Notes: generated by a model from the sequence alone, not told the origin. A stretch of 64,000 nt of DNA from an uncultured Actinomycetota bacterium (GCA_963817625.1 CAWFPK010000020.1:40185-104184), one strand, 5' to 3'; positions 37,465 to 46,549 are shown, numbered from the stretch's first letter. Program-made: numbers and translations.

Positions 37465-37576
37465 TCCGGCCGGCCCAGGCGGCATCGACCGGGCAGCTCG
37501 CCCATCTGGCCCTATGCCCGGTTTAGGTGATTAGCCCGGGCAGTGGCGGGTCAGGTCAGGCGTGCGCCGAACCCTT

Positions 37577-38143
37577 CTATGAGGTCATCCCGCCGAGGCC
37601 GACTAGACCTCTGGCCAGCTCGATCTCGCCTAGATGGCGCAGTCCGTGCTGGTAGAGCCAGCATTCGAAGCCGTCGAGCACGGTGATGCCGGCCGGCCCG
37701 GCGCAGCGGGCGCTGTAGGTGTCGGCGACGACTGGCGGGAAGGGCCTGGTGATGATCACCGGAGTGAGAGCGGCCACTTCGATCGTGTCCAGGTGGGCTT
37801 CGGTGCGGTCGAAGACCTCGCGCTGATAGTCGATGAACGCCTGGTAGTCGCCAATCTGCTGCCGCTCCATCTCCGCTACGGTGCGTTCTTTGCCGTGGTC
37901 AGGTACCGCCATCTGGACCCGGTCCTGCCACTGGTCGGTCCAGATCGGCGGCTGGCCGGTCAGGAACAGAAAGCTGGCATCTTCCATGTTGGTGTAGTGA
38001 AACAAGGAGAAGGCGATCGGCAGGACACCAGGCCGTTCCAGATGGTTGACGTGATCCACGGTCATCGTGCTGACCGCCTGGTAGTACAGCGAGTGCATGG
38101 TTCGCATGCGGCGCTGAAGCGAGTCGAGCAGCAGGTCGGTCAT
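37577..38143 (-). CDS. DinB-family four-helix-bundle protein
   Basis: 188 aa. The helical protein has spaced His residues (HSLYY, HVNH, HLGE). The family call is tentative. Confidence 0.45.
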   Translation of the reverse strand: MTDLLLDSLQRRMRTMHSLYYQAVSTMTVDHVNHLERPGVLPIAFSLFHYTNMEDASFLFLTGQPPIWTDQWQDRVQMAVPDHGKERTVAEMERQQIGDYQAFIDYQREVFDRTEAHLDTIEVAALTPVIITRPFPPVVADTYSARCAGPAGITVLDGFECWLYQHGLRHLGEIELARGLVGLGGMTS

Positions 38144-38248: not shown

Positions 38249-38899
38249 CTAACCACGGGTGAAGTTTGCCACCGCCGCCTGCCAGTCGATCACCACGTTC
38301 TCCCTGATGGTGTTCGGCAGGAACTTGCCAGGCACCTTGGATCCTGGAAAGACCAGCGGCAAGCCCTCAGGCGGCACTGGGTTGCCGACCTGGATCTGGT
38401 ACGGGGCCTCGCCTGGCGCCATGATCGTCAGCGTGAACGCGTACATGTCGTAGCCGGAGATCGAGCTCTTAACTCCGAGCGGCTGGGACGCGATGATCAC
38501 CACCTCGCACGCGGTGCCGCGGTCCAGGATGTCCTGGGCGGTGATCTTGCCTGCCGTCTGCGCCAGCCTGACCGTCGGCGGCTCGGTGCTGAAGTCGATG
38601 CCCACCCGTGAGTGGTCGCTCGGGTCCACCCTGACGGTGACGACGGTACGTCCAGGCTGAATGTCGGAGATCGCGTACACCGGGACGCGCTTGCGCACCT
38701 GAGCCTGGAACGGCGGGGTGTCGTCCAAGTAGACGACCAGGTCGAACAGGCATAGCTGCTCGGGCGGCGCGCCACCGTGCTGCACCGAGGTGCCGGTGAT
38801 CTGGACGTTCATTACCTCGGCTCGGCCAAGCTGGCCCATCAGCATCAGCTGCTGGTCATCGCCGCCTATCGCGGTCTTCATCTTGTTAAGAAAGCCCAT
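38249..38899 (-). CDS. hypothetical protein
   Basis: 216-aa ORF with good coding appearance in the high-GC background. No recognisable motif and no TM segment. Confidence 0.5.
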   Translation of the reverse strand: MGFLNKMKTAIGGDDQQLMLMGQLGRAEVMNVQITGTSVQHGGAPPEQLCLFDLVVYLDDTPPFQAQVRKRVPVYAISDIQPGRTVVTVRVDPSDHSRVGIDFSTEPPTVRLAQTAGKITAQDILDRGTACEVVIIASQPLGVKSSISGYDMYAFTLTIMAPGEAPYQIQVGNPVPPEGLPLVFPGSKVPGKFLPNTIRENVVIDWQAAVANFTRG

Positions 38900-38999: not shown

Positions 39000-39479
39000 T
39001 CACGGAGGTGAGATGTGCGGCGGCTTGCCGTTGCCGAAGGCCCAGCCTTCGACCCAGCCAGCCTTGGGGTGATAGCTGCTTGCGCCGACCTTGCTGTAGG
39101 TCCACTTACCGTGCGGCTTAGCGTGCCAGTAGGACCAGTAGGCCGAGGCCGGAGCGCCATTGCAGCTGTTGGGCCGGTGGTCGATCGTGCAGATGAAGCC
39201 GGGCAACCTGGGCACGAACGTGTACCTGAAGCCAGCCGCTTTCAACGCGGCCAGCCCGGTGGCCGGCTTCTTGCGATCACAGCCGAGCTTGACCGAGCCG
39301 TGGAACGCCTTGAAGTCGACTACGACCGTGACCCCCGTCTTGCCCGTGCACGCGGCCGCATAGGCCGGCGTTGCTCGGGCCACCCCCGCTGCCAGCGCGG
39401 CCGCCAGCAGCACCGAGATCACGATCATGGACAACCCCGTCCGACCAGCGAGCGGCCGGGCCAGCACCCGGGCGGTCAT
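39000..39479 (-). CDS. secreted DUF4430-like (transcobalamin C-terminal-domain-like) protein
   Basis: 159 aa with a signal peptide (LSMIVISVLLAAALAAGVARATPAYA). It is a paralogue of the 42227..42928 N-terminal domain (VVVDFK..G...L.C......GL.AL...G...........GFIC.I.........YW.YW.......W.YS..GA..Y.P..G..EGWAFG). Confidence 0.6.
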   Translation of the reverse strand: MTARVLARPLAGRTGLSMIVISVLLAAALAAGVARATPAYAAACTGKTGVTVVVDFKAFHGSVKLGCDRKKPATGLAALKAAGFRYTFVPRLPGFICTIDHRPNSCNGAPASAYWSYWHAKPHGKWTYSKVGASSYHPKAGWVEGWAFGNGKPPHISPP

Positions 39480-40528
39480 GCCGCGCAGCCCAGGTGCGGA
39501 GCGCCATCGCGGGCGCCGTGCGCGCTCAGCTTGGCCAAGCTGACGTCGGCGACCCCGAGCAATCCTTGGGCGGTCGCGTCGTCGGCTGTGCTGGCGAGAA
39601 ATCCGGTCTTGTCGAAGGCGATGGCGCCGACCTGGCTAGCCTTGCCCGAGCAGCCAACTTGCAGGCTCAGCAAGAACTTGGCGGCGCGAGCGGCCCGCCT
39701 GGTCCAGCCGGCCGCAGCGAAGGCTTGGCCGGCCAGCCCGGTGCTGTTCGCGTTCGGTGCGGCGCTCGCCGATGCGGCGAAGCCGCCGTTCGCGCGCTGC
39801 GCCTTCGCCAGCCAGCGCAGCCCGCGCGTGGCCGCGCCGGTGCGGCCGGCCACCAGCAGCGCTTGCACCGCCATGCCGGTCGCGTCAGCGTCGCTCGTAC
39901 AGGTCTTGTGCCCGAAGTACAGCGGGAAGCCGCCGTTCTCGCACTCGGTGCCGACCAGGTAGCTGACCGCCGAGGCTGGTGCCTGGCCCGACCGGGCCAC
40001 CGCAATGATCGCCAGCGCCTGGCTGAAGGCGTTGCTGTAATCACCGAACGACGAATGGTCAGAGTAACGGCCAGACTTGGTGAGCAGGTTGGCCAGCCGG
40101 GCGAGCAGGTTAACGCCGCCGAATTTGGCCGGGTTCAGCCCCCTGACCTCCGCGGCCAGCGCCACCTTGGCGGTTGCTCCGGCGTAGGAAGAGCTGGTGC
40201 CGTCGCCGATGTAGTTCGACAGCACCTTCGGCTGCTCAAGCCAAGTGGTAGCACGGGTGGCGTAGTCGTTGGCGGTGCGGGTCGCGGCAAAGGCGAGAAT
40301 CGCGTCAATGGTCTCGCCCTGGTTCGGGTAATCGACGCCTTTGTAGCTGGTGGTGAAATGGCTCCGGCCGGTGAGTTCGCGAGCGAGCCAGCCTGCCGCG
40401 GCCTGACCTCTGGTCGGAGCGGGCACCGGGGTGGCGGCGCTGGCCGCTGCGGCAGGTACGCCAAGGACCGCCGCAGCGATGGTGGCGGCGAGCGGGACAA
40501 TAAGAACGAAAGCTGGGCACCGGGTCAT
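39476..40528 (-). CDS. secreted prenyltransferase/squalene-oxidase-repeat (alpha/alpha-toroid) protein
   Basis: 350 aa with a signal peptide. Repeated QW-like motifs (YLVGTECENGGF, WLAKAQRANGGF, FLLSLQ). Paralogue of 41031..42230. Confidence 0.7.
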   Translation of the reverse strand: MTRCPAFVLIVPLAATIAAAVLGVPAAAASAATPVPAPTRGQAAAGWLARELTGRSHFTTSYKGVDYPNQGETIDAILAFAATRTANDYATRATTWLEQPKVLSNYIGDGTSSSYAGATAKVALAAEVRGLNPAKFGGVNLLARLANLLTKSGRYSDHSSFGDYSNAFSQALAIIAVARSGQAPASAVSYLVGTECENGGFPLYFGHKTCTSDADATGMAVQALLVAGRTGAATRGLRWLAKAQRANGGFAASASAAPNANSTGLAGQAFAAAGWTRRAARAAKFLLSLQVGCSGKASQVGAIAFDKTGFLASTADDATAQGLLGVADVSLAKLSAHGARDGAPHLGCAA

Positions 40529-40599
40529 TCCATTGGCCCCTTTCCGGTCCGGTTTTCCGGGACCGGACCCGCGGGGAGCCCAGACTCCGGCCCGCGGAC

Positions 40600-40750
40600 C
40601 ACGACGGGTGGGGAGTGCGTCGCGACGATCGTGGGTAACCGGGCTCGCCGACCTCGATGGGCCGTTTTACCGTTGCGGGTCAGCGCCGGGATCTCACCGG
40701 ACTTCCCCCACCAAGTCGCCTGTTGAGTTGTACTTGCTCATGCCAGACGT
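40600..40750 (-). promoter_or_regulatory. cobalamin riboswitch (minus strand)
   Basis: The reverse complement reads GGTGGGGGAAGTCCGGTGAGATCCCGGCGCTGACCCGCAACGGTAAAACGG...GGCGAGCCCGGTTACCC, which gives the conserved core (GGGAAg.CCGGTGaGAtCCGG.GC.GaCCCGCaAC.GT) plus a B12-box-like element. A TTGACA-N17-GACAGT promoter-like pair lies at 40780-40752, and an RBS-sequestering hairpin precedes ATG 40528. Confidence 0.75.
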
Positions 40751-40796
40751 TACTGTCTCCCACCGTCGCGGCGCTGTCAACACCTGCGTTGACCCT

Positions 40797-40960
40797 GCCA
40801 GTGCCGGTGTGATCAGATGGGGCGTCAATGTAGTCAGGGGAAGCCGGTCAGATTCCGGCACTGGCCCGCAGCCGTGGGTCCGCACGTCGTGCGGGCGAGT
40901 CGGAGCACCTGGCGTGACAGCAATAGTCGTCTTAGCGTCGTCGCGGACCACGGCGCGGAA
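40797..40960 (+). promoter_or_regulatory. cobalamin riboswitch (plus strand)
   Basis: GCCAG...AGGGGAAGCCGGTCAGATTCCGGCACTGGCCCGCAGCCGTGGG...GAGTCGGAGCACCTGGC. The conserved core and B12 box are present, and P1 can close as GCCAG (40797)/CTGGC (40909). It lies 70-230 nt upstream of ATG 41031. Confidence 0.75.
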
Positions 40961-41030
40961 CGTTCAGGTTTCCCGAAGGGCCGGGCGGATCTGAGGTTTC
41001 GCTACGCGGGGCCGCCCCTACGGGAGAGTC

Positions 41031-42230
41031 ATGCCGCTCGCACTGGCCAGTCGGCAGGCTGCCCGTTGCCTGGCCGTCGCCGCCACCGCGCTGGTGCTAG
41101 CGACCTGGGCCGCGCTGCCGCCCGCGCACGCGGCCGGCCCAGTTCGGCCTAACCTGGTCGCCGGGACCGCCTACCTGGTCAAGCCCGGCAATCTGATCGA
41201 CCGCCATTTCTACGAGTCCTTCCCGCACACCGCCGACTTCGGTCTCACCATTGACGCCGCGCTCGCCCTCGCCGCGACCGATGACAACAAGGCAATTCTG
41301 GAAAAAATCGTCGACTTCATCGCCCATGACGGTCGGGATCCGGCTGGTAAGACGGTGAATTACTGGACCGGGATCGGCACCGCGTACGCAGCCGGCGGTG
41401 CCATGGGCAAGGAGGCGCTGCTGGCCGAAGTCGTGGGCGCTAACCCGCGCGACTTCGGCGGGCACAATCTGATCGCCGCGTTGGCTGGGTCGGTCTGCCG
41501 GGCCGCGTCGCCCGGCTCATCAGGTCCGTGCGCCGGGCCGGGTAACTACCGCAACGCCACCTCGGTATTCGATCAGGCCTACGGCATCTTGGCCCAGCTT
41601 CGCGCCGGTCAGGCGAGGCAGGCCGCCGCGCCGATCGCCTTCCTTGAAGGCCTGCGAAATTCGGACGGCTCGTTTCCCAGCCTGATCCCTGACAGCCACG
41701 ATCACGACGTGGACAGCACCGCGATGGCAGTGATGGCACTGGCGCTGGTGCCGACCGCGCGGGCGCGGGCCGACGTCGCGGCCGGGCAGGCCTGGATCGC
41801 GAGCCGTCAGCAAGCTTCCGGCGGATTCCTTGGCAGCGGCGGAGTGTCGATCAACTCGACTGGGCTGGCCATCCAGGCGCTTTCGTTGCTGGCGGCTCGC
41901 TACCTGGCGCCGATCGGGCGGGCCGAGGCTTTCCTCGCCACCGCGCAGAACGTCGACGGCGGCTTCAGCGCCTATGCGGGCCAGCGCGACTCCAATGTGC
42001 GGGCGAGCACGCAGGCGCTGAGTGGCGCGGTCGGCATCTCGTTCGGCACCATGCGCCGCGTACTCACGCCCACTGCGACCAGGGACCATGGCGGCCGGGC
42101 CGGCGGCTGGCTGGCGATCGGCGTGCTGCTGATCGCGGCGATGACGGCCCTGGCGTTCGCGCTGCGCCGTCGTCGGCGAACCGAGCCTGGTCAGAACGTC
42201 CGCACGGTACGTGACCGGGTCGAACCATGA
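41031..42230 (+). CDS. membrane-anchored prenyltransferase/squalene-oxidase-repeat (alpha/alpha-toroid) protein
   Basis: 399 aa with a signal peptide. QW-like repeats AFLEGLRNSDGSF, AWIASRQQASGGF, AFLATAQNVDGGF. C-terminal TM segment plus RRRRR stop-transfer (GWLAIGVLLIAAMTALAFALRRRRR). Confidence 0.75.
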   Translation: MPLALASRQAARCLAVAATALVLATWAALPPAHAAGPVRPNLVAGTAYLVKPGNLIDRHFYESFPHTADFGLTIDAALALAATDDNKAILEKIVDFIAHDGRDPAGKTVNYWTGIGTAYAAGGAMGKEALLAEVVGANPRDFGGHNLIAALAGSVCRAASPGSSGPCAGPGNYRNATSVFDQAYGILAQLRAGQARQAAAPIAFLEGLRNSDGSFPSLIPDSHDHDVDSTAMAVMALALVPTARARADVAAGQAWIASRQQASGGFLGSGGVSINSTGLAIQALSLLAARYLAPIGRAEAFLATAQNVDGGFSAYAGQRDSNVRASTQALSGAVGISFGTMRRVLTPTATRDHGGRAGGWLAIGVLLIAAMTALAFALRRRRRTEPGQNVRTVRDRVEP

Positions 42231-42928
42231 GCCGCCTGGCCGTGGCCGGCCTCGCTGCGGCCTGCTGCCTGTGGGTCGCGCTCGGCAGCGCCTGGCCAGC
42301 CGTGGCGGCGGCTCGCCCGGTCGGCGATTGCACGACCACGACGGGTGCGACGCTCATTGTCGACTTCAAGCCGTGGGGCGGCCCGGTCCTGCGCGCTTGC
42401 GGCAGCACGCCGACTACTGGCTGGAGGCTGCTCAACCAGGGTGGCTGGGCTACCGCAGGCGATGCCCACGATGGCCCTGGCTTTATCTGCCGGATCAGCT
42501 ATGCGGGCTTCAGGCACGGCGCCTTCTACCCGACGGCCGCGAAGCAGGCGTGCGTTGACACCCCGCCTGGCAATGCGTACTGGGCTTACTGGATGGCCGG
42601 GCCTGGCCAGAACACCTGGCACTACAGCCAGGAAGGGGCCGCCAGCTATCACCCGCAGCCCGGCAGCATTAGCTTGTGGGCATTCGGCGGTACTAGCATC
42701 ACCGGGACCTCGGGCAGTGCCAGGCCGAAAGTGAGCCCGGATGAGTTGCGCCGCGAGGTCGCGGCGGCCAGCCCGGCGCTGACGAGCGCACCGCCGGCCG
42801 CGCCGCCGGCCGGGAACGGCGGATCGGCCGGGCCGACAGTGCTGGTGCTCCTGGTGGTGGCCATGCTGGCGGTGGCCGCAGCCGCCGGGACGTGGCGGCG
42901 CCGGACGCGGGCCCGGGCGCTCGGGTGA
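42227..42928 (+). CDS. membrane-anchored DUF4430-like protein
   Basis: 233 aa. Signal peptide, a domain paralogous to 39000..39479, a Pro/Ala linker and a C-terminal TM anchor (PTVLVLLVVAMLAVAAAAGTWRRRTR). ATGA overlap with the upstream gene. Confidence 0.65.
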   Translation: MSRLAVAGLAAACCLWVALGSAWPAVAAARPVGDCTTTTGATLIVDFKPWGGPVLRACGSTPTTGWRLLNQGGWATAGDAHDGPGFICRISYAGFRHGAFYPTAAKQACVDTPPGNAYWAYWMAGPGQNTWHYSQEGAASYHPQPGSISLWAFGGTSITGTSGSARPKVSPDELRREVAAASPALTSAPPAAPPAGNGGSAGPTVLVLLVVAMLAVAAAAGTWRRRTRARALG

Positions 42929-44088
42929 ACGGCCGGCTGCCTCGGGCGCTGCACCCGGTGGCCTGGTGGGCCTGGGCGACTGGCCTCGCCACGGCGGCCA
43001 GCCGGACGAGCAACCCGTTGCTGCTGGTGCTGATCTTCGCGGTGCTCGGGCTAGTCGTCGCCCTGCGCCGGTCGCAGGCACCGTGGGCACGCGGATATCG
43101 CTTCTACCTTCTGATGGCCGGCCTCGTGGTCGGCATCAGAGTGGCCTTCAGCATCGTGTTCGCCAGTGACGGCACAGCCGGCCAAGACATTTTGTTTCGG
43201 CTCCCGGTCTTTCCGATGCCCAGCTGGTTCGCGGGAGTTCACGTTGGCGGGCCAGTCACGGCGGCGGCGATGCTGTCATCGGCAGTCGACGGGATTCGGC
43301 TGGCGTGCCTGTTGTGCTGCATCGGTGCCGCGAATACGCTGGCGAACCCCAAGCGGGCGCTGCGCGCACTGCCCGGTGCGCTCTATGAGCTAGGCGTCGC
43401 GGTCACGGTCGCGCTTTCGGTCGCGCCGCAGCTGGTGGAGAGCGCCGTCCGGGTGCGGGCCGCGCGGCGGCTTCGCGGCGAGACCGGCCGGCGGTTCTGG
43501 GCGCTGCGTACCATCGCTATCCCGGTGCTGCAAGATGCGCTTGACCGGTCCTTGTGGCTGGCGGCCGCGATGGACGCGCGCGGGTACGGGCGCACGGCTG
43601 GTGCGAGTCGGACGAGCCGTCGGCTCACCAGCGCCTGCCTGCTCACTGGACTGGCCGCGTTGTGCCTCGGCGGCTACGGGCTGCTTGATCCGACGGTGCC
43701 GCAGGGGGTCGGGGCTGGCGGCTTCATCGCCGGGGCGGCGCTGAGCGTGGCCGGGCTCGCGCTCGGCGGCCGGCGGGTGTCGCGCAGCCGGTACCAGCCT
43801 GATCCTTGGCGCTGGCCGGAATGGGTGGTGGCCGGCTCCGGGCTCGGCTGCGCGGTCGTGCTGTGCGTCAACCTAGGCTACGGCCCGGCGTCGCTGAACC
43901 CGGCTTTTTATCCGCTGCACTGGCCCACCCTGCCCTTGCTGCCGGCGCTGGCGATCCTGGTGACCGCCGTGGCAGCGGTCGCCGCGCCGCCGGTCGCGGT
44001 TGCTGGTCCGGTGCCTGCTCCTGCGCCTGAAGTAGTAGCGATGGGGGTGGCCAGTGATCGAGTTCGACCGGATGGGCTTGCGGTATGA
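42925..44088 (+). CDS. ECF transporter T component (CbiQ family)
   Basis: ORF 42892..44088. GTG at 42925 gives a GTGA overlap with the upstream stop. Polytopic, with the EcfT coupling motif AAAMDARGYG. Confidence 0.75.
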   Translation: MNGRLPRALHPVAWWAWATGLATAASRTSNPLLLVLIFAVLGLVVALRRSQAPWARGYRFYLLMAGLVVGIRVAFSIVFASDGTAGQDILFRLPVFPMPSWFAGVHVGGPVTAAAMLSSAVDGIRLACLLCCIGAANTLANPKRALRALPGALYELGVAVTVALSVAPQLVESAVRVRAARRLRGETGRRFWALRTIAIPVLQDALDRSLWLAAAMDARGYGRTAGASRTSRRLTSACLLTGLAALCLGGYGLLDPTVPQGVGAGGFIAGAALSVAGLALGGRRVSRSRYQPDPWRWPEWVVAGSGLGCAVVLCVNLGYGPASLNPAFYPLHWPTLPLLPALAILVTAVAAVAAPPVAVAGPVPAPAPEVVAMGVASDRVRPDGLAV

Positions 44089-45676
44089 CGACGCGACCAG
44101 GCCGGTGCTGACCGACATCAGCCTGCGGATCGATGAAGGCGAGTTGTGCCTGGTGGTCGGGCCGACCGGCAGCGGCAAGTCGACGCTGCTCGGTGCCATC
44201 AACGGGCTGGTGCCGCATTTCACCGGTGGCACGCTGACCGGGCGGGTGCGGGTCGCTGGCCGGGACACGGCCAAGTTCCCGCCCCGCGAGCTGGCCGACG
44301 TGGTCGGCGTGGTCGGCCAAGATCCGCTGGCCGGGTTCGTCACCGACACGGTCACGAGGAGCTCGCCTACACGATGGAGCAGCTGGCCGTCGATCCCGGC
44401 GCGATGCGCGCCCGGGTGCGAGGAGACGCTCGACCTGCTCGGCATCGCCGAGCTGCGGCACCGGGCCTTCGCGCACGCTGTCGGGTGGCCAGCAGCAGCG
44501 GGTCGCCATCGGCGCGGTGCTGACCGCGCATCCGGCGGTGCTCGTGCTTGACGAGCCGACCTCGGCGCTCGACCCGACCAGCGCAGAGGAGGTGCTGGCG
44601 GCGATCACCCGGCTGGTGCACGACCTCGGCATCACGGTTGTGCTGGCCGAGCACCGGCTGGAGCGAGTGGTGCCCTACGCGGATCGGCTGGTGTATCTGG
44701 CCGGAGACGGGACGGCCGTGGCTGGCGAGCCGGCCACGGTGCTTGCCGCGGCGACGATCTGCCCGCCGGTGGTGGAGCTCGGCAAGCTGGCCGGCTGGAA
44801 GCCGCTGCCGCTGTCGGTGCGCGATGCCCGGCGGCGTGCGCCTGAGCTGCGGCGGGCGTTGCCGCAGCAGCCGCCTGCCGGGGCAGCACGGCCAGTGCGG
44901 GAGGCAACCGCGCTCACCGCGCGGGGGATCGTGGTGCGCTACGGATCAGTTGTCGCGGTGCGCGGGGTCGGGTTGACGTTGCGGGCGGGCGAGATTACCG
45001 CTCTGATGGGGCGGAACGGCTCTGGGAAGTCGTCGCTGCTGTGGGCGCTGCAAGGATCTGGGCGGCGAGCTGGCGGCACGGTGGCGGTTGGCCCGTTGGC
45101 TGCGGACCCCGGGAAGCAGTCGGCGGCCGCGGCCAGGCGGCTGGTCGGCCTGGTCCCGCAGACGGCGGCTGACCTGCTGTATCTCGACACGGTGCGGGCT
45201 GAGCTCGGGCACGCTGACCGGGACGCCGGGCGGGGCCGGCGGGGCCGCGCTTGCCCTACTCCATGCGATCGCGCCCGGGATTGAATTGGATAGTCATCCT
45301 CGAGATCTGTCCGAGGGCCAACAACTCGCCCTTGTGCTGGCAATCCAGCTGGCGGCCGGCCCGGCGGTGCTCGCTGCTCGATGAGCCGACGCGCGGACTT
45401 GACTATCCAGCCAAGGCGGCGCTGACCAGGGCGCTCGACCAGCTCGCCCGGCGTGGGCACGCGATCGTGATCGCGACCCACGACGTCGAGTTCGCCACCC
45501 GCAGCCGCGATCGGGTCATCGTGATGGCCGAAGGCGAGATCGTGGCCGACGGCGAGGCCGCGACCGTGCTGACCGCATCGCCGACCTTCGCGCCGCAGGT
45601 GGCCAAGGTGCTGGCGCCGCTGCCGTACCTGACCATGGACCAGGTGGCGGCCGCACTTGGACGGGTGCGGGCGTGA
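44054..45676 (+). pseudogene. ECF transporter fused double ATPase (EcfA-EcfA'), about 5 frame breaks
   Basis: Two ABC cassettes (GPTGSGKST/LSGGQQQR/VLVLDEP and GRNGSGKSS/LSEGQQ/LLDEPTRGLD) are spread over ORFs 44054, 44146, 44517, 45088 and 45251. Breaks lie near 44350, 44419, 44470, 45235 and 45372. Confidence 0.8.
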
Positions 45677-46549
45677 CGCGCTGGCGGGCCGACGGTCTTG
45701 CGGTCGCGATCCGGGTGCGGCGGCGGTCGGTGCTGGCGATCGGGCTGGCGTCATTTCTCGGGTTGATCGCGTTTTGCTGGCCGCTTGTGATCGCGCCAAG
45801 CTCGGCGGCCTCGGCCGACACCTGCGCCGCTGATGTTCGGCGTGCTGCTGCTCGGCGTCGTTGCCGTAGTGTTCGCCGAGCTCGCCGACGGCGGCATCGA
45901 CGCCAAGGCTATCGCCATGCTCGGCGTGCTGGCCGCGATCAACGCGGCGATCCGGCCGCTTGGCGGCGGCACGGCCGGGGTCGAGACAGTGTTCTTCCTG
46001 CTGGTGCTGGCTGGGCGAGTGTTCGGTGCGGGATTCGGGTTCGCGCTCGGCTGCACGTCCCTGTTCGCGTCGGCCTTGCTGACCGGCGGCGTCGGCCCGT
46101 GGATGCCCTACCAGATGTTCGGCTGCGCCTGGATCGGCATGCTGGCGGGCCTGCTGCCGCCGCTGCGCGGCAAGCTCGAAGTGCTCATGCTCGCGGCGTA
46201 CGGGGCGGTGAGCGGGTACCTGTTCGGGTTGCTGCTCAACTTGAGCTTCTGGCCATTCTCCGTCGACCAGTCGAGCTCGATCGCCTACCGGCCAGGACTG
46301 GCGTTCGCTGATCAGCTCCACCGGTACCTGCTGTTTGACGCGAGCACGTCGCTGGGCTGGGACACCGGTCGGGCCATCACGACCGCACTGGCCATCATGA
46401 TCATCGGGCCGTCGGCGCTGAGCGCCTTCCGCCGAGCCGCCCGTCGCGCCAACTTCCAGCCCACCGTGGCGTTCGAGCCGGCCCTGACGGCTAGCTCAAC
46501 GGCCGTGGCGGTGCGGTCGGGGGATGGCGGCGTCTCGGTCGGTGATTAG
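45673..46549 (+). pseudogene. ECF-type substrate-capture (S) membrane protein, one frame break
   Basis: The N-terminus in ORF 45673 (…SVLAIGLASFLGLIAFCWPLVIAPSSAASAD) continues in ORF 45833 (PAPLMFGVLLLGVVAVVFAEL...). One extra nt near 45820. GTGA overlap with the ATPase gene. Confidence 0.65.

What the first reader, a model, noticed from the sequence alone, without database searches (positions are those of the whole stretch)
39000..46549. Split transcobalamin-like corrinoid capture system: soluble and membrane-anchored (alpha/alpha-toroid + DUF4430-like) pairs feeding an ECF transporter
Each riboswitch controls a pair of secreted proteins. One is a prenyltransferase/squalene-oxidase-repeat alpha/alpha-toroid protein (39476-40528 and 41031-42230). 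The other is a small domain resembling DUF4430, the bacterial relative of the transcobalamin C-terminal beta-domain (39000-39479 and 42227-42928). To my knowledge, eukaryotic B12 carriers (transcobalamin, intrinsic factor, haptocorrin) are built from exactly these two modules, an alpha6/alpha6 barrel plus a beta-domain, fused in one chain. Here the modules appear to be separate polypeptides. The minus-strand pair has signal peptides only, so it is predicted to be released or soluble. Both plus-strand proteins end in a TM helix plus an Arg-rich stop-transfer sequence, so they are predicted to be anchored. They are followed by EcfT, a fused EcfA-A' and an S-type membrane protein. This suggests a relay in which a secreted corrinoid-binding pair hands ligand to an anchored pair and then to the ECF importer. 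B12 regulation is seen directly in the sequence. The structural analogy and the relay are inference.
Basis: partly seen in the sequence, partly recalled or inferred. Interest (0 to 1): 0.7.

Follow-up and report, generated by a model that had tools for sequence, protein, structure and literature searches.

The report
Split transcobalamin-like B12 capture system
Two vitamin-B12-sensing RNA switches control two pairs of exported proteins whose folds match the two halves of the animal B12 carrier transcobalamin, beside a vitamin importer that is broken in this sequence; a similar system was proposed in Lactobacillus, but this widespread actinobacterial version is uncharacterised.

Summary
Two back-to-back cobalamin riboswitches (Rfam RF00174, both above threshold) each drive a toroid gene plus a small gene. 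The minus-strand pair has signal peptides only. The plus-strand pair ends in a TM helix plus Arg cluster and is followed by EcfT, a fused EcfA-A' and an S component.

Two corrections:
- The small proteins do not hit Pfam DUF4430 (0 of 62 family members). However, a confident AlphaFold model (pLDDT 86.5) gives transcobalamin, its isolated beta domain, intrinsic factor and the DUF4430 structure 3u7z as its top 12 PDB matches.
- The ATPase and S genes carry about six frameshifts here, while relatives have them intact. The importer is either decaying in this genome or locally mis-assembled.

The layout is conserved in actinobacteria, and nearly every related locus keeps the riboswitches. Streptomyces-type loci have a single-chain secreted toroid + DUF4430-like protein in the slot held here by the split soluble pair. 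They also encode a true DUF4430 protein, a BtuF-like protein, and sortase-anchored small-toroid fusions.

Best reading: a B12-repressed corrinoid-scavenging module. The soluble-to-anchored relay is untested and is not general. A split transcobalamin-like pair beside an ECF transporter was already proposed for Lactobacillus sakei, so this is a new variant, not a new kind.

The parts
39000..39479 (-). A: small secreted protein, 159 aa. It has a signal peptide, four Cys and no anchor. Its predicted fold is like the transcobalamin beta domain / DUF4430.
   Evidence: ORF; exact copy in an NCBI/ENA record. AF2 model pLDDT 86.5, pTM 0.82. Foldseek top 12 hits are TC, IF and 3u7z. No Pfam DUF4430 hit. 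Weak NCBIfam SCO2322_fam hit, 3.5e-5.
39476..40528 (-). B: secreted alpha/alpha-toroid protein, 350 aa, with a signal peptide and no anchor. Its 3' end overlaps the start of A by 4 nt.
   Evidence: NCBIfam SCO2321_fam 1.5e-33, below that model's cutoff. Pfam SQHop_cyclase_C E 0.017. Paralogue of C, E 7e-19.
40612..40747 (-). Cobalamin riboswitch aptamer in the leader of the B-A operon.
   Evidence: RF00174, 36.7 bits, core at 40633-40708. Family model R1, 100.8 bits.
40793..40931 (+). Cobalamin riboswitch aptamer in the leader of the operon C-D-ecfT-ecfAA'-S.
   Evidence: RF00174, 34.4 bits, full-length match. R1, 116.8 bits.
41031..42230 (+). C: alpha/alpha-toroid protein, 399 aa, with a signal peptide and a C-terminal TM helix followed by RRRRR.
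   Evidence: Pfam Prenyltrans E 9e-8, above cutoff. Weak Cobalamin_bind PF01122 hit, E 0.02. Same gene call on Logan contig L082.
42227..42928 (+). D: small protein, 233 aa, paralogue of A, with a linker and a C-terminal TM helix followed by RRRTR. It overlaps C by 4 nt.
   Evidence: A low-confidence AF2 model still gives TC, IF and 3u7z as the top Foldseek hits. 438 homologues found.
42892..44088 (+). EcfT (CbiQ family) transmembrane component. It is intact; its C-terminal tail runs about 10 codons longer than in relatives.
   Evidence: PF02361 E 4e-8. 70% identical to L004 EcfT over 382 columns. Tail comparison.
44054..45676 (+). Fused EcfA-A' ATPase with two ABC domains, interrupted by about five frameshifting indels in this sequence.
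   Evidence: Pieces hit ABC_tran and ECF_ATPase models. Frame changes. Indel positions relative to L004, L001 and L006. Relatives are intact.
45673..46549 (+). ECF S-type substrate component, about 290 aa when intact. It is interrupted by a +1 indel near 45823.
   Evidence: PF12822 E 4e-5, sub-threshold. The 238-aa fragment equals P0388, which carries a precomputed PF12822 hit; homologues are named 'ECF transporter S component'. Frame change.

Best explanation
This is a B12-repressed corrinoid-scavenging module of actinobacteria.

SHOWN
- Two divergent cobalamin riboswitches each precede a translationally coupled toroid + small-protein pair. All four proteins are exported.
- One pair is free and one is tethered by C-terminal TM anchors.
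- The tethered pair is co-transcribed with a dedicated ECF module (T, fused A-A', S).
- The small protein is predicted to adopt the transcobalamin beta-domain / DUF4430 fold, and the large one is an alpha/alpha toroid.

INFERRED
- Each toroid + small pair clamps a corrinoid between the two proteins, as the alpha and beta domains of transcobalamin, intrinsic factor and haptocorrin do within one chain.
- The membrane-tethered pair concentrates ligand at the S component for ATP-driven import.
- When intracellular cobalamin is high, the riboswitches shut both operons off.
- The free pair may act as a diffusible binder that passes ligand to the tethered pair. This is the weakest step.

In this particular genome the ATPase and S genes are frame-shifted. 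The importer is therefore either a recent pseudogene or locally mis-assembled, while the four binding-protein genes are intact.
For: - Riboswitches. The + strand riboswitch sits directly upstream of the cluster in essentially every related locus with enough flank, usually with a divergent - strand partner.
- Fold of the small protein: AF2 pLDDT 86.5. The Foldseek top 12 are all transcobalamin, its isolated beta domain (5no0: TMq 0.56, TMt 0.62, rmsd 3.7 A, prob 1.00), intrinsic factor, and DUF4430 3u7z (TMt 0.55-0.58). The next hits are generic ubiquitin-like folds with prob <0.3. An independent, poorer model of D gave the same top hits.
- An isolated TC beta domain has been solved bound to cyanocobalamin (PDB 5np4, title).
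- Toroid. hhalign to the human TC alpha domain gives E 0.0018, with matching VDTAAMAGLAF / DVDSTAMAVMAL and QxxDGxF motifs.
- Functional coupling of the two modules: 4-nt gene overlaps; conserved adjacency in 80 loci; natural small-toroid(-toroid) fusions in 53 loci, 49 of them with an L[PA]xTG sortase signal; and fused proteins P0285 and P0352.
- B12 context in Streptomyces-type loci: the divergent riboswitch drives a single-chain secreted toroid + C-terminal DUF4430-like protein (53 loci). A third riboswitch drives a canonical DUF4430 protein (PF14478 E 2e-5, above cutoff). A BtuF-like Peripla_BP_2 gene lies between them.
- ECF parts.
- Precedent: L. sakei lsa1836-1840.
Against: - No sequence-level link between the small family and DUF4430 or TC. 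Pfam finds 0 of 62 members. The PDB profile search finds nothing. hhalign gives E 0.09-0.22 against TC beta, the Streptomyces DUF4430 proteins and the single-chain C-domain.
- Foldseek E-values are only about 1e-2.
- The toroid is far closer to terpene-cyclase-like toroids (2.6e-30) than to TC, which is not in the top 60 PDB hits.
- No structure of a complex and no ligand data exist.
- The S component matches no solved S component, including CbrT, so its substrate is unknown.
- The only experimentally touched relative (L. sakei) was assigned to heme, not B12.
- The ATPase and S genes are disrupted here.
Confidence: 0.6

Rival explanations
1. The system captures another tetrapyrrole, such as heme as proposed for the L. 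sakei homologue-by-architecture, or a corrinoid precursor or cobalt complex, rather than complete cobalamin.
For: The L. sakei lsa1836-1840 deletion and over-expression data were interpreted as heme uptake, and heme docked into the modelled alpha/beta cleft. The S component here is not CbrT-like and matches no solved S component. Cobalamin riboswitches also control cobalt transporters (S. lividans cbiM).
Against: Both operons, and nearly every orthologous locus, carry cobalamin riboswitches. This fits a corrinoid-related cargo better than heme. Neighbours in Streptomyces loci are DUF4430 and BtuF-like proteins. No CbiM/CbiN cobalt-type S unit is present.
Confidence: 0.12
2. The toroid and small proteins are cell-envelope proteins with a role other than ligand capture, for example enzymatic or structural. 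They would be switched on under B12 limitation as part of a B12-sparing response, and the fold resemblance to transcobalamin would be incidental.
For: The toroid family's best PDB matches are class-II terpene-cyclase-like proteins, and it keeps a D-x-D-S-T motif where squalene-hopene cyclases have DxDDTA (own knowledge of the cyclase motif; family consensus). The small domain has no significant sequence similarity to any B12 binder. Beta-grasp-like folds are common (lower hits).
Against: - The proteins are extracytoplasmic and are always encoded with a dedicated ECF importer.
- Repeated independent fusion of small and toroid modules argues for one joint function.
- TC, IF and DUF4430 are the specific top fold hits, clearly separated from generic ubiquitin-like folds.
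- True DUF4430 proteins share the regulon in Streptomyces.
Confidence: 0.1
3. In this particular genome the locus is a decaying remnant. The importer is a pseudogene, so no uptake occurs. The four binding-protein genes are either on the way out or retained for another purpose such as sequestration.
For: About six frameshifting indels lie within about 1.5 kb of ecfAA' and S, mostly outside homopolymers. Independent Logan contigs of the same sample differ from the window by only one (intergenic) indel over 11.3 kb of adjacent sequence. Relatives are intact in 68 of 69 and 50 of 51 loci.
Against: - The source looks like a long-read metagenome bin.
- The only other broken copies (L008, L012) are also MFD long-read MAGs, which suggests assembly error.
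- SNP differences from Logan cluster at GCCGGC sites, typical of methylation-related basecalling error.
- No independent copy of this region exists in the collections searched.
- Apart from the frameshifts, amino-acid identity to relatives stays high (75-86%).
Confidence: 0.4

Closest known systems
Lactobacillus (Latilactobacillus) sakei lsa1836-1840 ECF-like system (Verplaetse et al., bioRxiv 10.1101/864751; read)
   Same: [quoted passage not shown] They are proposed to form a heterodimer that scavenges a tetrapyrrole and hands it to the S component.
   Different: - The L. sakei system was assigned to heme; no cobalamin riboswitch is reported there.
- It has one pair only and no membrane-anchored copies.
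- Its beta-like protein is recognisable by HHpred against TC (99.8%), whereas the family here escapes DUF4430 HMMs.
- The phylum differs.
- Direct sequence comparison was not possible, because no L. sakei sequences were on hand.
Eukaryotic cobalamin carriers transcobalamin, intrinsic factor and haptocorrin (Pfam PF01122 + PF14478; PDB 2bb5, 2pmv, 4kki)
   Same: They combine an alpha/alpha-toroid module with a roughly 100-residue beta module. The small protein's model superposes on the TC beta domain (TM 0.56-0.62). The toroid aligns weakly to TC alpha (E 0.0018).
   Different: - The carriers are one chain in alpha-to-beta order; here the modules are two polypeptides, and natural fusions run beta-to-alpha.
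- There is no significant sequence similarity for the small module.
- PF01122 is only a sub-threshold hit (E 0.02).
- B12 binding is untested.
ECF-CbrT vitamin B12 importer of Lactobacillus delbrueckii (Santos et al. 2018, eLife, PMC5997447)
   Same: It is an ECF-type importer implicated in B12 uptake, with the same T and A module types.
   Different: CbrT works without extracellular binding proteins. The S component here shows no detectable similarity to any solved S component, including CbrT; it gives only a sub-threshold PF12822 match. It is also about 280 aa, rather than about 190.
NCBIfam SCO2321 family membrane protein (NF053823) and SCO2322 family protein (NF040672)
   Same: These are the same two module types (anchored toroid and small protein) in actinomycetes. 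B, C, A and D all hit these models.
   Different: All scores fall far below the family cutoffs (116 and 57 bits against 300; 24 and 21 bits against 85). This is true even for the Streptomyces orthologues of this cluster. These are related paralogous families, not the same one, and the NCBIfam names carry no function.
Surface or secreted ligand-relay systems, such as Gram-positive Isd/hemophore heme relays and Bacteroides BtuG/BtuH B12-binding lipoproteins (own knowledge, not tested here)
   Same: The concept is the same: extracellular high-affinity binders pass a scarce cofactor to a membrane transporter.
   Different: The folds are unrelated. No transfer has been demonstrated here. In most relatives all copies are anchored, so a soluble-to-anchored relay is not a general property.

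Membership tests
Rfam RF00174 cobalamin riboswitch | Covariance-model score at or above the gathering score (31.5 bits) | tested here: met
   36.7 bits on the - strand and 34.4 bits on the + strand. Both have a short P6 region (11-12 nt where the model has 61-62).
Pfam PF14478 DUF4430 (transcobalamin-like C-terminal domain) | HMM match above the gathering score (23.8 bits) | tested here: not met
   No hit for A or D at E<=0.1. None of 62 family members hits at E<=5. As a positive control, the Streptomyces protein L048:1444-2226 scores 25.4 bits, E 2e-5.
Pfam PF14478 DUF4430 (transcobalamin-like C-terminal domain) | Same three-dimensional fold as the TC beta domain and 3u7z | tested here: met
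   The AF2 model (pLDDT 86.5) matches 5no0 at TMq 0.56 / TMt 0.62, prob 1.00, and 3u7z at TMt 0.55-0.58, prob 0.41-0.69. The top 12 hits are exclusively TC, IF and 3u7z. This is a predicted structure, and E-values are only about 1e-2.
Pfam PF14478 DUF4430 (transcobalamin-like C-terminal domain) | Profile-profile sequence similarity to bona fide members | tested here: not met
   hhalign of A2 against human TC beta gives E 0.089 (12 columns). Against Streptomyces DUF4430 proteins it gives E 0.18, and against the single-chain C-domain E 0.22. The profiles had low diversity (Neff 1.6-2.5).
Transcobalamin / intrinsic factor / haptocorrin | Alpha6/alpha6 barrel (PF01122) and beta domain in one polypeptide | tested here: not met
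   The modules are separate genes. PF01122 is only E 0.02, 14.3 bits against a cutoff of 25.
Transcobalamin / intrinsic factor / haptocorrin | Binds cobalamin at the alpha/beta interface | not testable with these tools
   No complex prediction or ligand assay was available.
Alpha/alpha-toroid (Prenyltrans PF00432 / SQHop_cyclase; 6-hairpin class) | HMM match above the gathering score, or a significant profile match to solved toroids | tested here: met
   C scores 32.3 bits on PF00432 against a cutoff of 26.5. The family profile A3 hits squalene-cyclase-like chains at 2.6e-30, and also prenyltransferase beta subunits and complement TED domains. B is sub-threshold alone but is a paralogue of C.
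ECF transporter (group with a dedicated T, A-A' and S) | T component (CbiQ family) present | tested here: met
   PF02361, E 4e-8, 33.6 bits against a cutoff of 25.
ECF transporter (group with a dedicated T, A-A' and S) | Two ABC ATPase domains, intact | tested here: not met
   Both ABC domains are recognisable, but they are spread over several frames by about five indels. Orthologues are single ORFs of about 560 aa.
ECF transporter (group with a dedicated T, A-A' and S) | S component recognisable as such | tested here: inconclusive
   PF12822 scores 24.1 bits in the window fragment and 28.9 bits in the intact L006 orthologue, both below the 30.7 cutoff. The collection's precomputed Pfam column lists PF12822 for the exact fragment, and source names say 'ECF transporter S component'. 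There is no PDB match.
NCBIfam SCO2321_fam / SCO2322_fam | Score above the curated cutoff (300 / 85 bits) | tested here: not met
   B 116 bits, C 57, A 24, D 21. Streptomyces orthologues are also below cutoff.
L. sakei Lsa1836-1840-type system | Operon with ECF S, A-A' and T plus separately encoded secreted TC-alpha-like and TC-beta-like proteins | tested here: met
   Gene content matches the description. Orthology by sequence was not tested, because no L. sakei sequences were available.

The most novel reading that the evidence does not exclude
Actinobacteria assemble a 'two-piece transcobalamin' outside the cell. A free toroid + beta-like pair would act as a diffusible corrinoid carrier (a B12 'hemophore') that docks onto, or hands its ligand to, a membrane-tethered paralogous pair wired to a dedicated ECF importer. 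The split, fused (beta-to-alpha) and single-chain (alpha-to-beta) versions found in one regulon across actinomycetes would then record how the eukaryotic B12 carrier architecture could arise.
Probability: 0.2. Interest if true: 0.8.

Novelty: new variant of a known kind. Interest (0 to 1): 0.55.

Why it matters
How Gram-positive soil actinobacteria, including Streptomyces, acquire corrinoids is poorly defined. The small-protein family is large: 3,214 clusters at 50% identity in a 1.84-billion-protein library, and relatives in at least 427 species representatives. It is almost always under cobalamin riboswitches and has no assigned function. If the pairs bind B12, this would be a bacterial counterpart of transcobalamin built from separate parts. 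It would also add extracellular binding proteins to ECF transporters, which are textbook 'binding-protein-independent' importers. Finally, it would give a genetically tractable model in Streptomyces for the origin of the animal B12 carriers. It also shows that current DUF4430 HMMs miss a whole branch of the fold.

Tried and rejected
- Pfam scans for DUF4430 on A, D and 62 relatives found nothing.
- A profile search of the small family against all PDB sequences gave only noise.
- hhalign of the small family against human TC beta, Streptomyces DUF4430 proteins and the single-chain C-domain was not significant.
- The first AF2 model (D, 62 similar sequences) was poor, at pLDDT 58.8. Adding the A-type paralogues fixed this.
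- Toroid-to-small 'fusions' P0253 and P0286, in TC order, were considered as Rosetta-stone evidence. I rejected them because the junctions look like out-of-frame read-through and P0286 retains an internal signal peptide. Only the small-to-toroid fusions were accepted.
- My first TM-anchor tally for Streptomyces loci was misleading, because the upstream small and toroid hits are one fused ORF. It was redone.
- Attempts to find an independent copy of the frame-shifted region failed. Three exact-product look-ups and a homology search with the S fragment gave only the same NCBI/ENA contig.
- A crude GC3 HMM for window-wide frameshift detection was unreliable.
- The promoter/terminator scan was uninformative.
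- The S component was compared with solved S components, including CbrT, with no hit.
- Literature searches for SCO2321-2325, and for Streptomyces with B12 riboswitch and ECF, found no description of this system.

Full report
WHAT IS IN THE SEQUENCE

The window is 66.6% G+C. Its closest relatives are Streptosporangiaceae/Trebonia-type metagenome bins, about 70% identical at protein level. At the stated coordinates there are four ORFs:
- A: 39000-39479 (-), 159 aa.
- B: 39476-40528 (-), 350 aa.
- C: 41031-42230 (+), 399 aa.
- D: 42227-42928 (+), 233 aa.

B/A and C/D each overlap by the 4-nt ATGA arrangement typical of translational coupling. C and D are called identically on an independently assembled Logan contig, where C carries PF00432. 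A occurs exactly in an NCBI/ENA contig of 563,993 bp.

The 500-nt spacer between B and C holds two divergent cobalamin riboswitches. Rfam RF00174 gives 36.7 bits on the minus strand and 34.4 bits on the plus strand, both above the 31.5-bit gathering score. Each lies about 100 nt upstream of its operon's first start codon.

THE PROTEINS

C hits the Prenyltransferase alpha-alpha toroid model above threshold (E 9e-8). It also gives a weak hit to the eukaryotic cobalamin-binding model PF01122 (E 0.02). B is sub-threshold in Pfam, but it matches NCBIfam SCO2321_fam (1.5e-33) and is 36% identical to C (E 7e-19).

A profile of 47 toroid sequences from related loci hits squalene-cyclase-like PDB chains at 2.6e-30, followed by prenyltransferase beta subunits and complement TED domains. 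Transcobalamin is not among the 60 best. Against the human transcobalamin alpha domain, hhalign gives E 0.0018 over 114 columns, with matching helix motifs. I recalled that alpha-domain sequence from memory; a 40-residue stretch of it agrees with PDB sequences printed. The toroid assignment is therefore solid. 'Transcobalamin-like' holds only at the level of the fold class.

A and D are paralogues (36% identity, E 1e-20). They share four conserved cysteines and a Y-W-x-Y-W ... G-A-x-x-Y-x-P-x-x-G ... W-x-F signature. C and D end in a hydrophobic helix followed by an Arg cluster, and A and B do not. All four begin with signal-peptide-like N-termini (read).

THE DUF4430 QUESTION

- No DUF4430 hit for A or D at E<=0.1.
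- None among 62 family members at E<=5.
- No PDB sequence hit with the family profile.
- Only a 12-column, E 0.089 hhalign match to the human TC beta domain. I verified that recalled sequence as 100% identical to PDB 5no0 and 2bb5.

Structure prediction gives a different picture. A first model of D was poor (pLDDT 58.8), yet its best PDB matches were already transcobalamin, intrinsic factor and 3u7z. A second model, of A, used a 125-sequence alignment of both paralogue families and reached pLDDT 86.5, pTM 0.82. Its twelve best Foldseek hits are exclusively:
- transcobalamin chains;
- the isolated TC beta domain (5no0: TMq 0.56, TMt 0.62, rmsd 3.7 A, probability 1.00);
- intrinsic factor (probability 0.77);
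- the DUF4430 crystal structure 3u7z (TMt 0.55-0.58).

After these comes a clear drop to generic ubiquitin-like folds (probability <0.3). I conclude that the small proteins very probably have the TC-beta/DUF4430 fold. They form a branch that current sequence models do not reach, so they are not Pfam DUF4430 members by the family's own criterion.

THE TRANSPORTER AND ITS FRAMESHIFTS

Downstream of D lies an intact EcfT (CbiQ, E 4e-8). The ATPase is not one ORF. GC3 phase, three-frame translation and tblastn with intact orthologues show the reading frame moving 2, 1, 2, 3, 1, 2. Alignment to three relatives places single-base indels at about 44353, 44414, 44470 and 45376, and a length change near 45242. 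A +1 indel at about 45823 splits the S gene.

Orthologues have a single roughly 560-aa ATPase in 68 of 69 loci and a roughly 280-aa S component in 50 of 51. The two exceptions are long-read MAGs.

Over the adjacent 11.3 kb, two Logan contigs from the same sample differ from the window by seven substitutions and one intergenic indel. Several differences lie at GCCGGC sites. So the indel cluster is local and far above the background rate. I could not find an independent copy of that stretch. Whether this is real gene decay or a local consensus error stays open; I put it at roughly even odds. Either way, the claim that the pairs feed an ECF importer holds for the family, but it is not demonstrated for this genome.

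CONSERVATION AND CONTEXT

The small-protein profile finds 3,214 clusters (50% identity) at E<=1e-3 among 1.84 billion representatives. A pattern-limited scan of species-representative genomes found 427 relatives.

In 80 fetched loci, the anchored small gene is always preceded by a toroid gene and followed by EcfT. A covariance model built from 13 of the riboswitches finds a plus-strand riboswitch immediately upstream of the cluster in essentially every locus with enough flank. Most loci also have a divergent minus-strand riboswitch beside it.

Two layouts exist:
- Streptosporangiaceae-type loci. These repeat the window's layout exactly: a soluble small + toroid pair on one side and an anchored toroid + small pair plus ECF on the other.
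- Streptomyces-, Micromonospora- and Kitasatospora-type loci. The main operon begins with one long ORF that fuses small-toroid(-toroid) and ends in an L[PA]xTG sortase signal (53 loci fused, 49 with the motif). The anchored small protein and the ECF genes follow.

In the second type, the divergent riboswitch drives a 470-aa secreted single-chain protein (53 loci). It has a toroid N-terminal part and a C-terminal domain that is weakly DUF4430 by Pfam (E 0.059). That C-terminal domain is related to a canonical DUF4430 protein by hhalign (E 3.1e-5). The canonical DUF4430 gene (PF14478 E 2e-5, above threshold) sits behind a third riboswitch in 13 loci, next to a BtuF-like Peripla_BP_2 gene.

Neither the single-chain protein nor the canonical DUF4430 protein has a homologue in the window. 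The genomic slot that holds a single-chain, transcobalamin-ordered toroid + DUF4430 protein in Streptomyces therefore holds the split B + A pair here. Together with the repeated natural fusions of small and toroid modules, this is the best evidence available to me that the two modules work as one unit in B12-related chemistry.

MECHANISM, WITH WHAT IS SHOWN AND WHAT IS INFERRED

Shown: B12-riboswitch control, export signals, the anchoring pattern, coupling of the pairs, the ECF linkage, the predicted fold of the small protein, and the toroid fold class.

Inferred:
- Each pair sandwiches a corrinoid as TC does.
- The tethered pair presents ligand to the S component.
- The riboswitches repress both operons when B12 is replete.
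It is plausible by analogy with hemophore systems but rests on no data, and most relatives have no free split pair.

Rivals are heme or other cargo, an unrelated envelope function, and local gene decay. They are set out in the rival-explanations section of this report.

COMPARISON WITH WHAT IS KNOWN, AND NOVELTY

The closest precedent is L. sakei lsa1836-1840. There an ECF S, fused A-A' and T are encoded with two secreted proteins that HHpred assigns to the TC beta and alpha domains. They were modelled as a heterodimer and proposed to scavenge heme, 'instead or additionally to' cobalamin. So the idea of a split transcobalamin-like pair feeding an ECF importer is already published.

What is new here:
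- the actinobacterial family, which DUF4430 HMMs miss;
- the consistent cobalamin-riboswitch control, often two or three riboswitches per locus;
- the duplication into soluble and anchored pairs;
- the spectrum of split, fused and single-chain forms.

NCBI's SCO2321 and SCO2322 family models are related, but they are not met at their cutoffs and carry no function. I found no paper describing this system in the held library.

Verdict: a real, conserved and uncharacterised system; a new variant of a known kind; interest 0.55.

Noticed in passing
window 44049-45823: There are about six to seven single-base or short indels relative to three orthologues: about 44049, 44353, 44414, 44470, 45242, 45376 and 45823. 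They break the ATPase and the S gene, while the flanking genes are intact. They are mostly not in homopolymers. This is either a pseudogene or a local assembly error.
   Followed up: partly
L048 3201-4613 (-), with orthologues in 53 loci (e.g. L074 3102-4514): A secreted 470-aa single-chain protein with a toroid N-terminal part and a DUF4430-like C-terminal domain, in transcobalamin order. It sits under its own cobalamin riboswitch, divergent from the ECF cluster in Streptomyces-type genomes. It may be a bacterial one-chain transcobalamin analogue.
   Followed up: partly
L048 1456-2226 (+) and 2240-3232 (-); similar in 13 loci: A third cobalamin riboswitch is followed by a canonical DUF4430 secreted protein (PF14478 above threshold). 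Next to it is a BtuF-like Peripla_BP_2 protein that appears to lack a signal peptide. Together these form a small 'B12 island' beside the cluster.
   Followed up: partly
L048 4612-7914 (+); 53 loci: The small, toroid and second toroid modules are fused in one roughly 930-aa ORF that ends in LAxTG/LPxTG plus a TM helix and Arg tail. This indicates sortase-mediated wall anchoring. The window's C and D have only a TM + Arg tail and no sortase motif.
   Followed up: yes
window 40612-40747 (-) and 40793-40931 (+): Both aptamers have only 11-12 nt where the Rfam model has a 61-62-nt P6 extension. This resembles the short class-II type of cobalamin riboswitch, reported to prefer methyl- or hydroxocobalamin. 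Ligand selectivity was not tested.
   Followed up: no
window 40539-40603 (-): A sub-threshold match to Rfam RF03006 'M23 RNA' (31.2 bits against a gathering score of 41.2; E 4e-4 locally). It lies between the minus-strand aptamer and the start of B, so it may simply be the expression-platform hairpin.
   Followed up: no
window 37468-37690 and 42801-42808, compared with Logan contigs L081 and L082: Several of the few differences between the window and independent contigs of the same sample fall in GCCGGC / GCCGGCC contexts. This suggests methylation-linked basecalling error in one of the assemblies.
   Followed up: no
proteins P0017, P0054, P0127 and others: Some members of both small-protein families carry a precomputed Pfam accession, PF28005.1. 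It is absent from the local Pfam copy, so a newer Pfam family may already cover this domain. Its name and description could not be checked.
   Followed up: no
L008 (toroid C and ATPase) and L012 (S gene): The only other loci with split cluster genes are also MFD long-read metagenome bins. This hints that frameshifts in this G+C-rich operon can be assembly artefacts.
   Followed up: partly
L039 14325-16048 and L078 1801-3194: Some genomes (Plantactinospora, Dactylosporangium) carry a third, soluble toroid + small pair elsewhere in the neighbourhood. In L039 it has its own riboswitch.
   Followed up: no
window 37577-38143 (-) and 38249-38899 (-): The genes just downstream of A are a DinB/mycothiol-transferase-like protein (NF047843, E 2e-10, below cutoff) and a 216-aa protein with no family hit. 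There is no evidence that they belong to the system.
   Followed up: no
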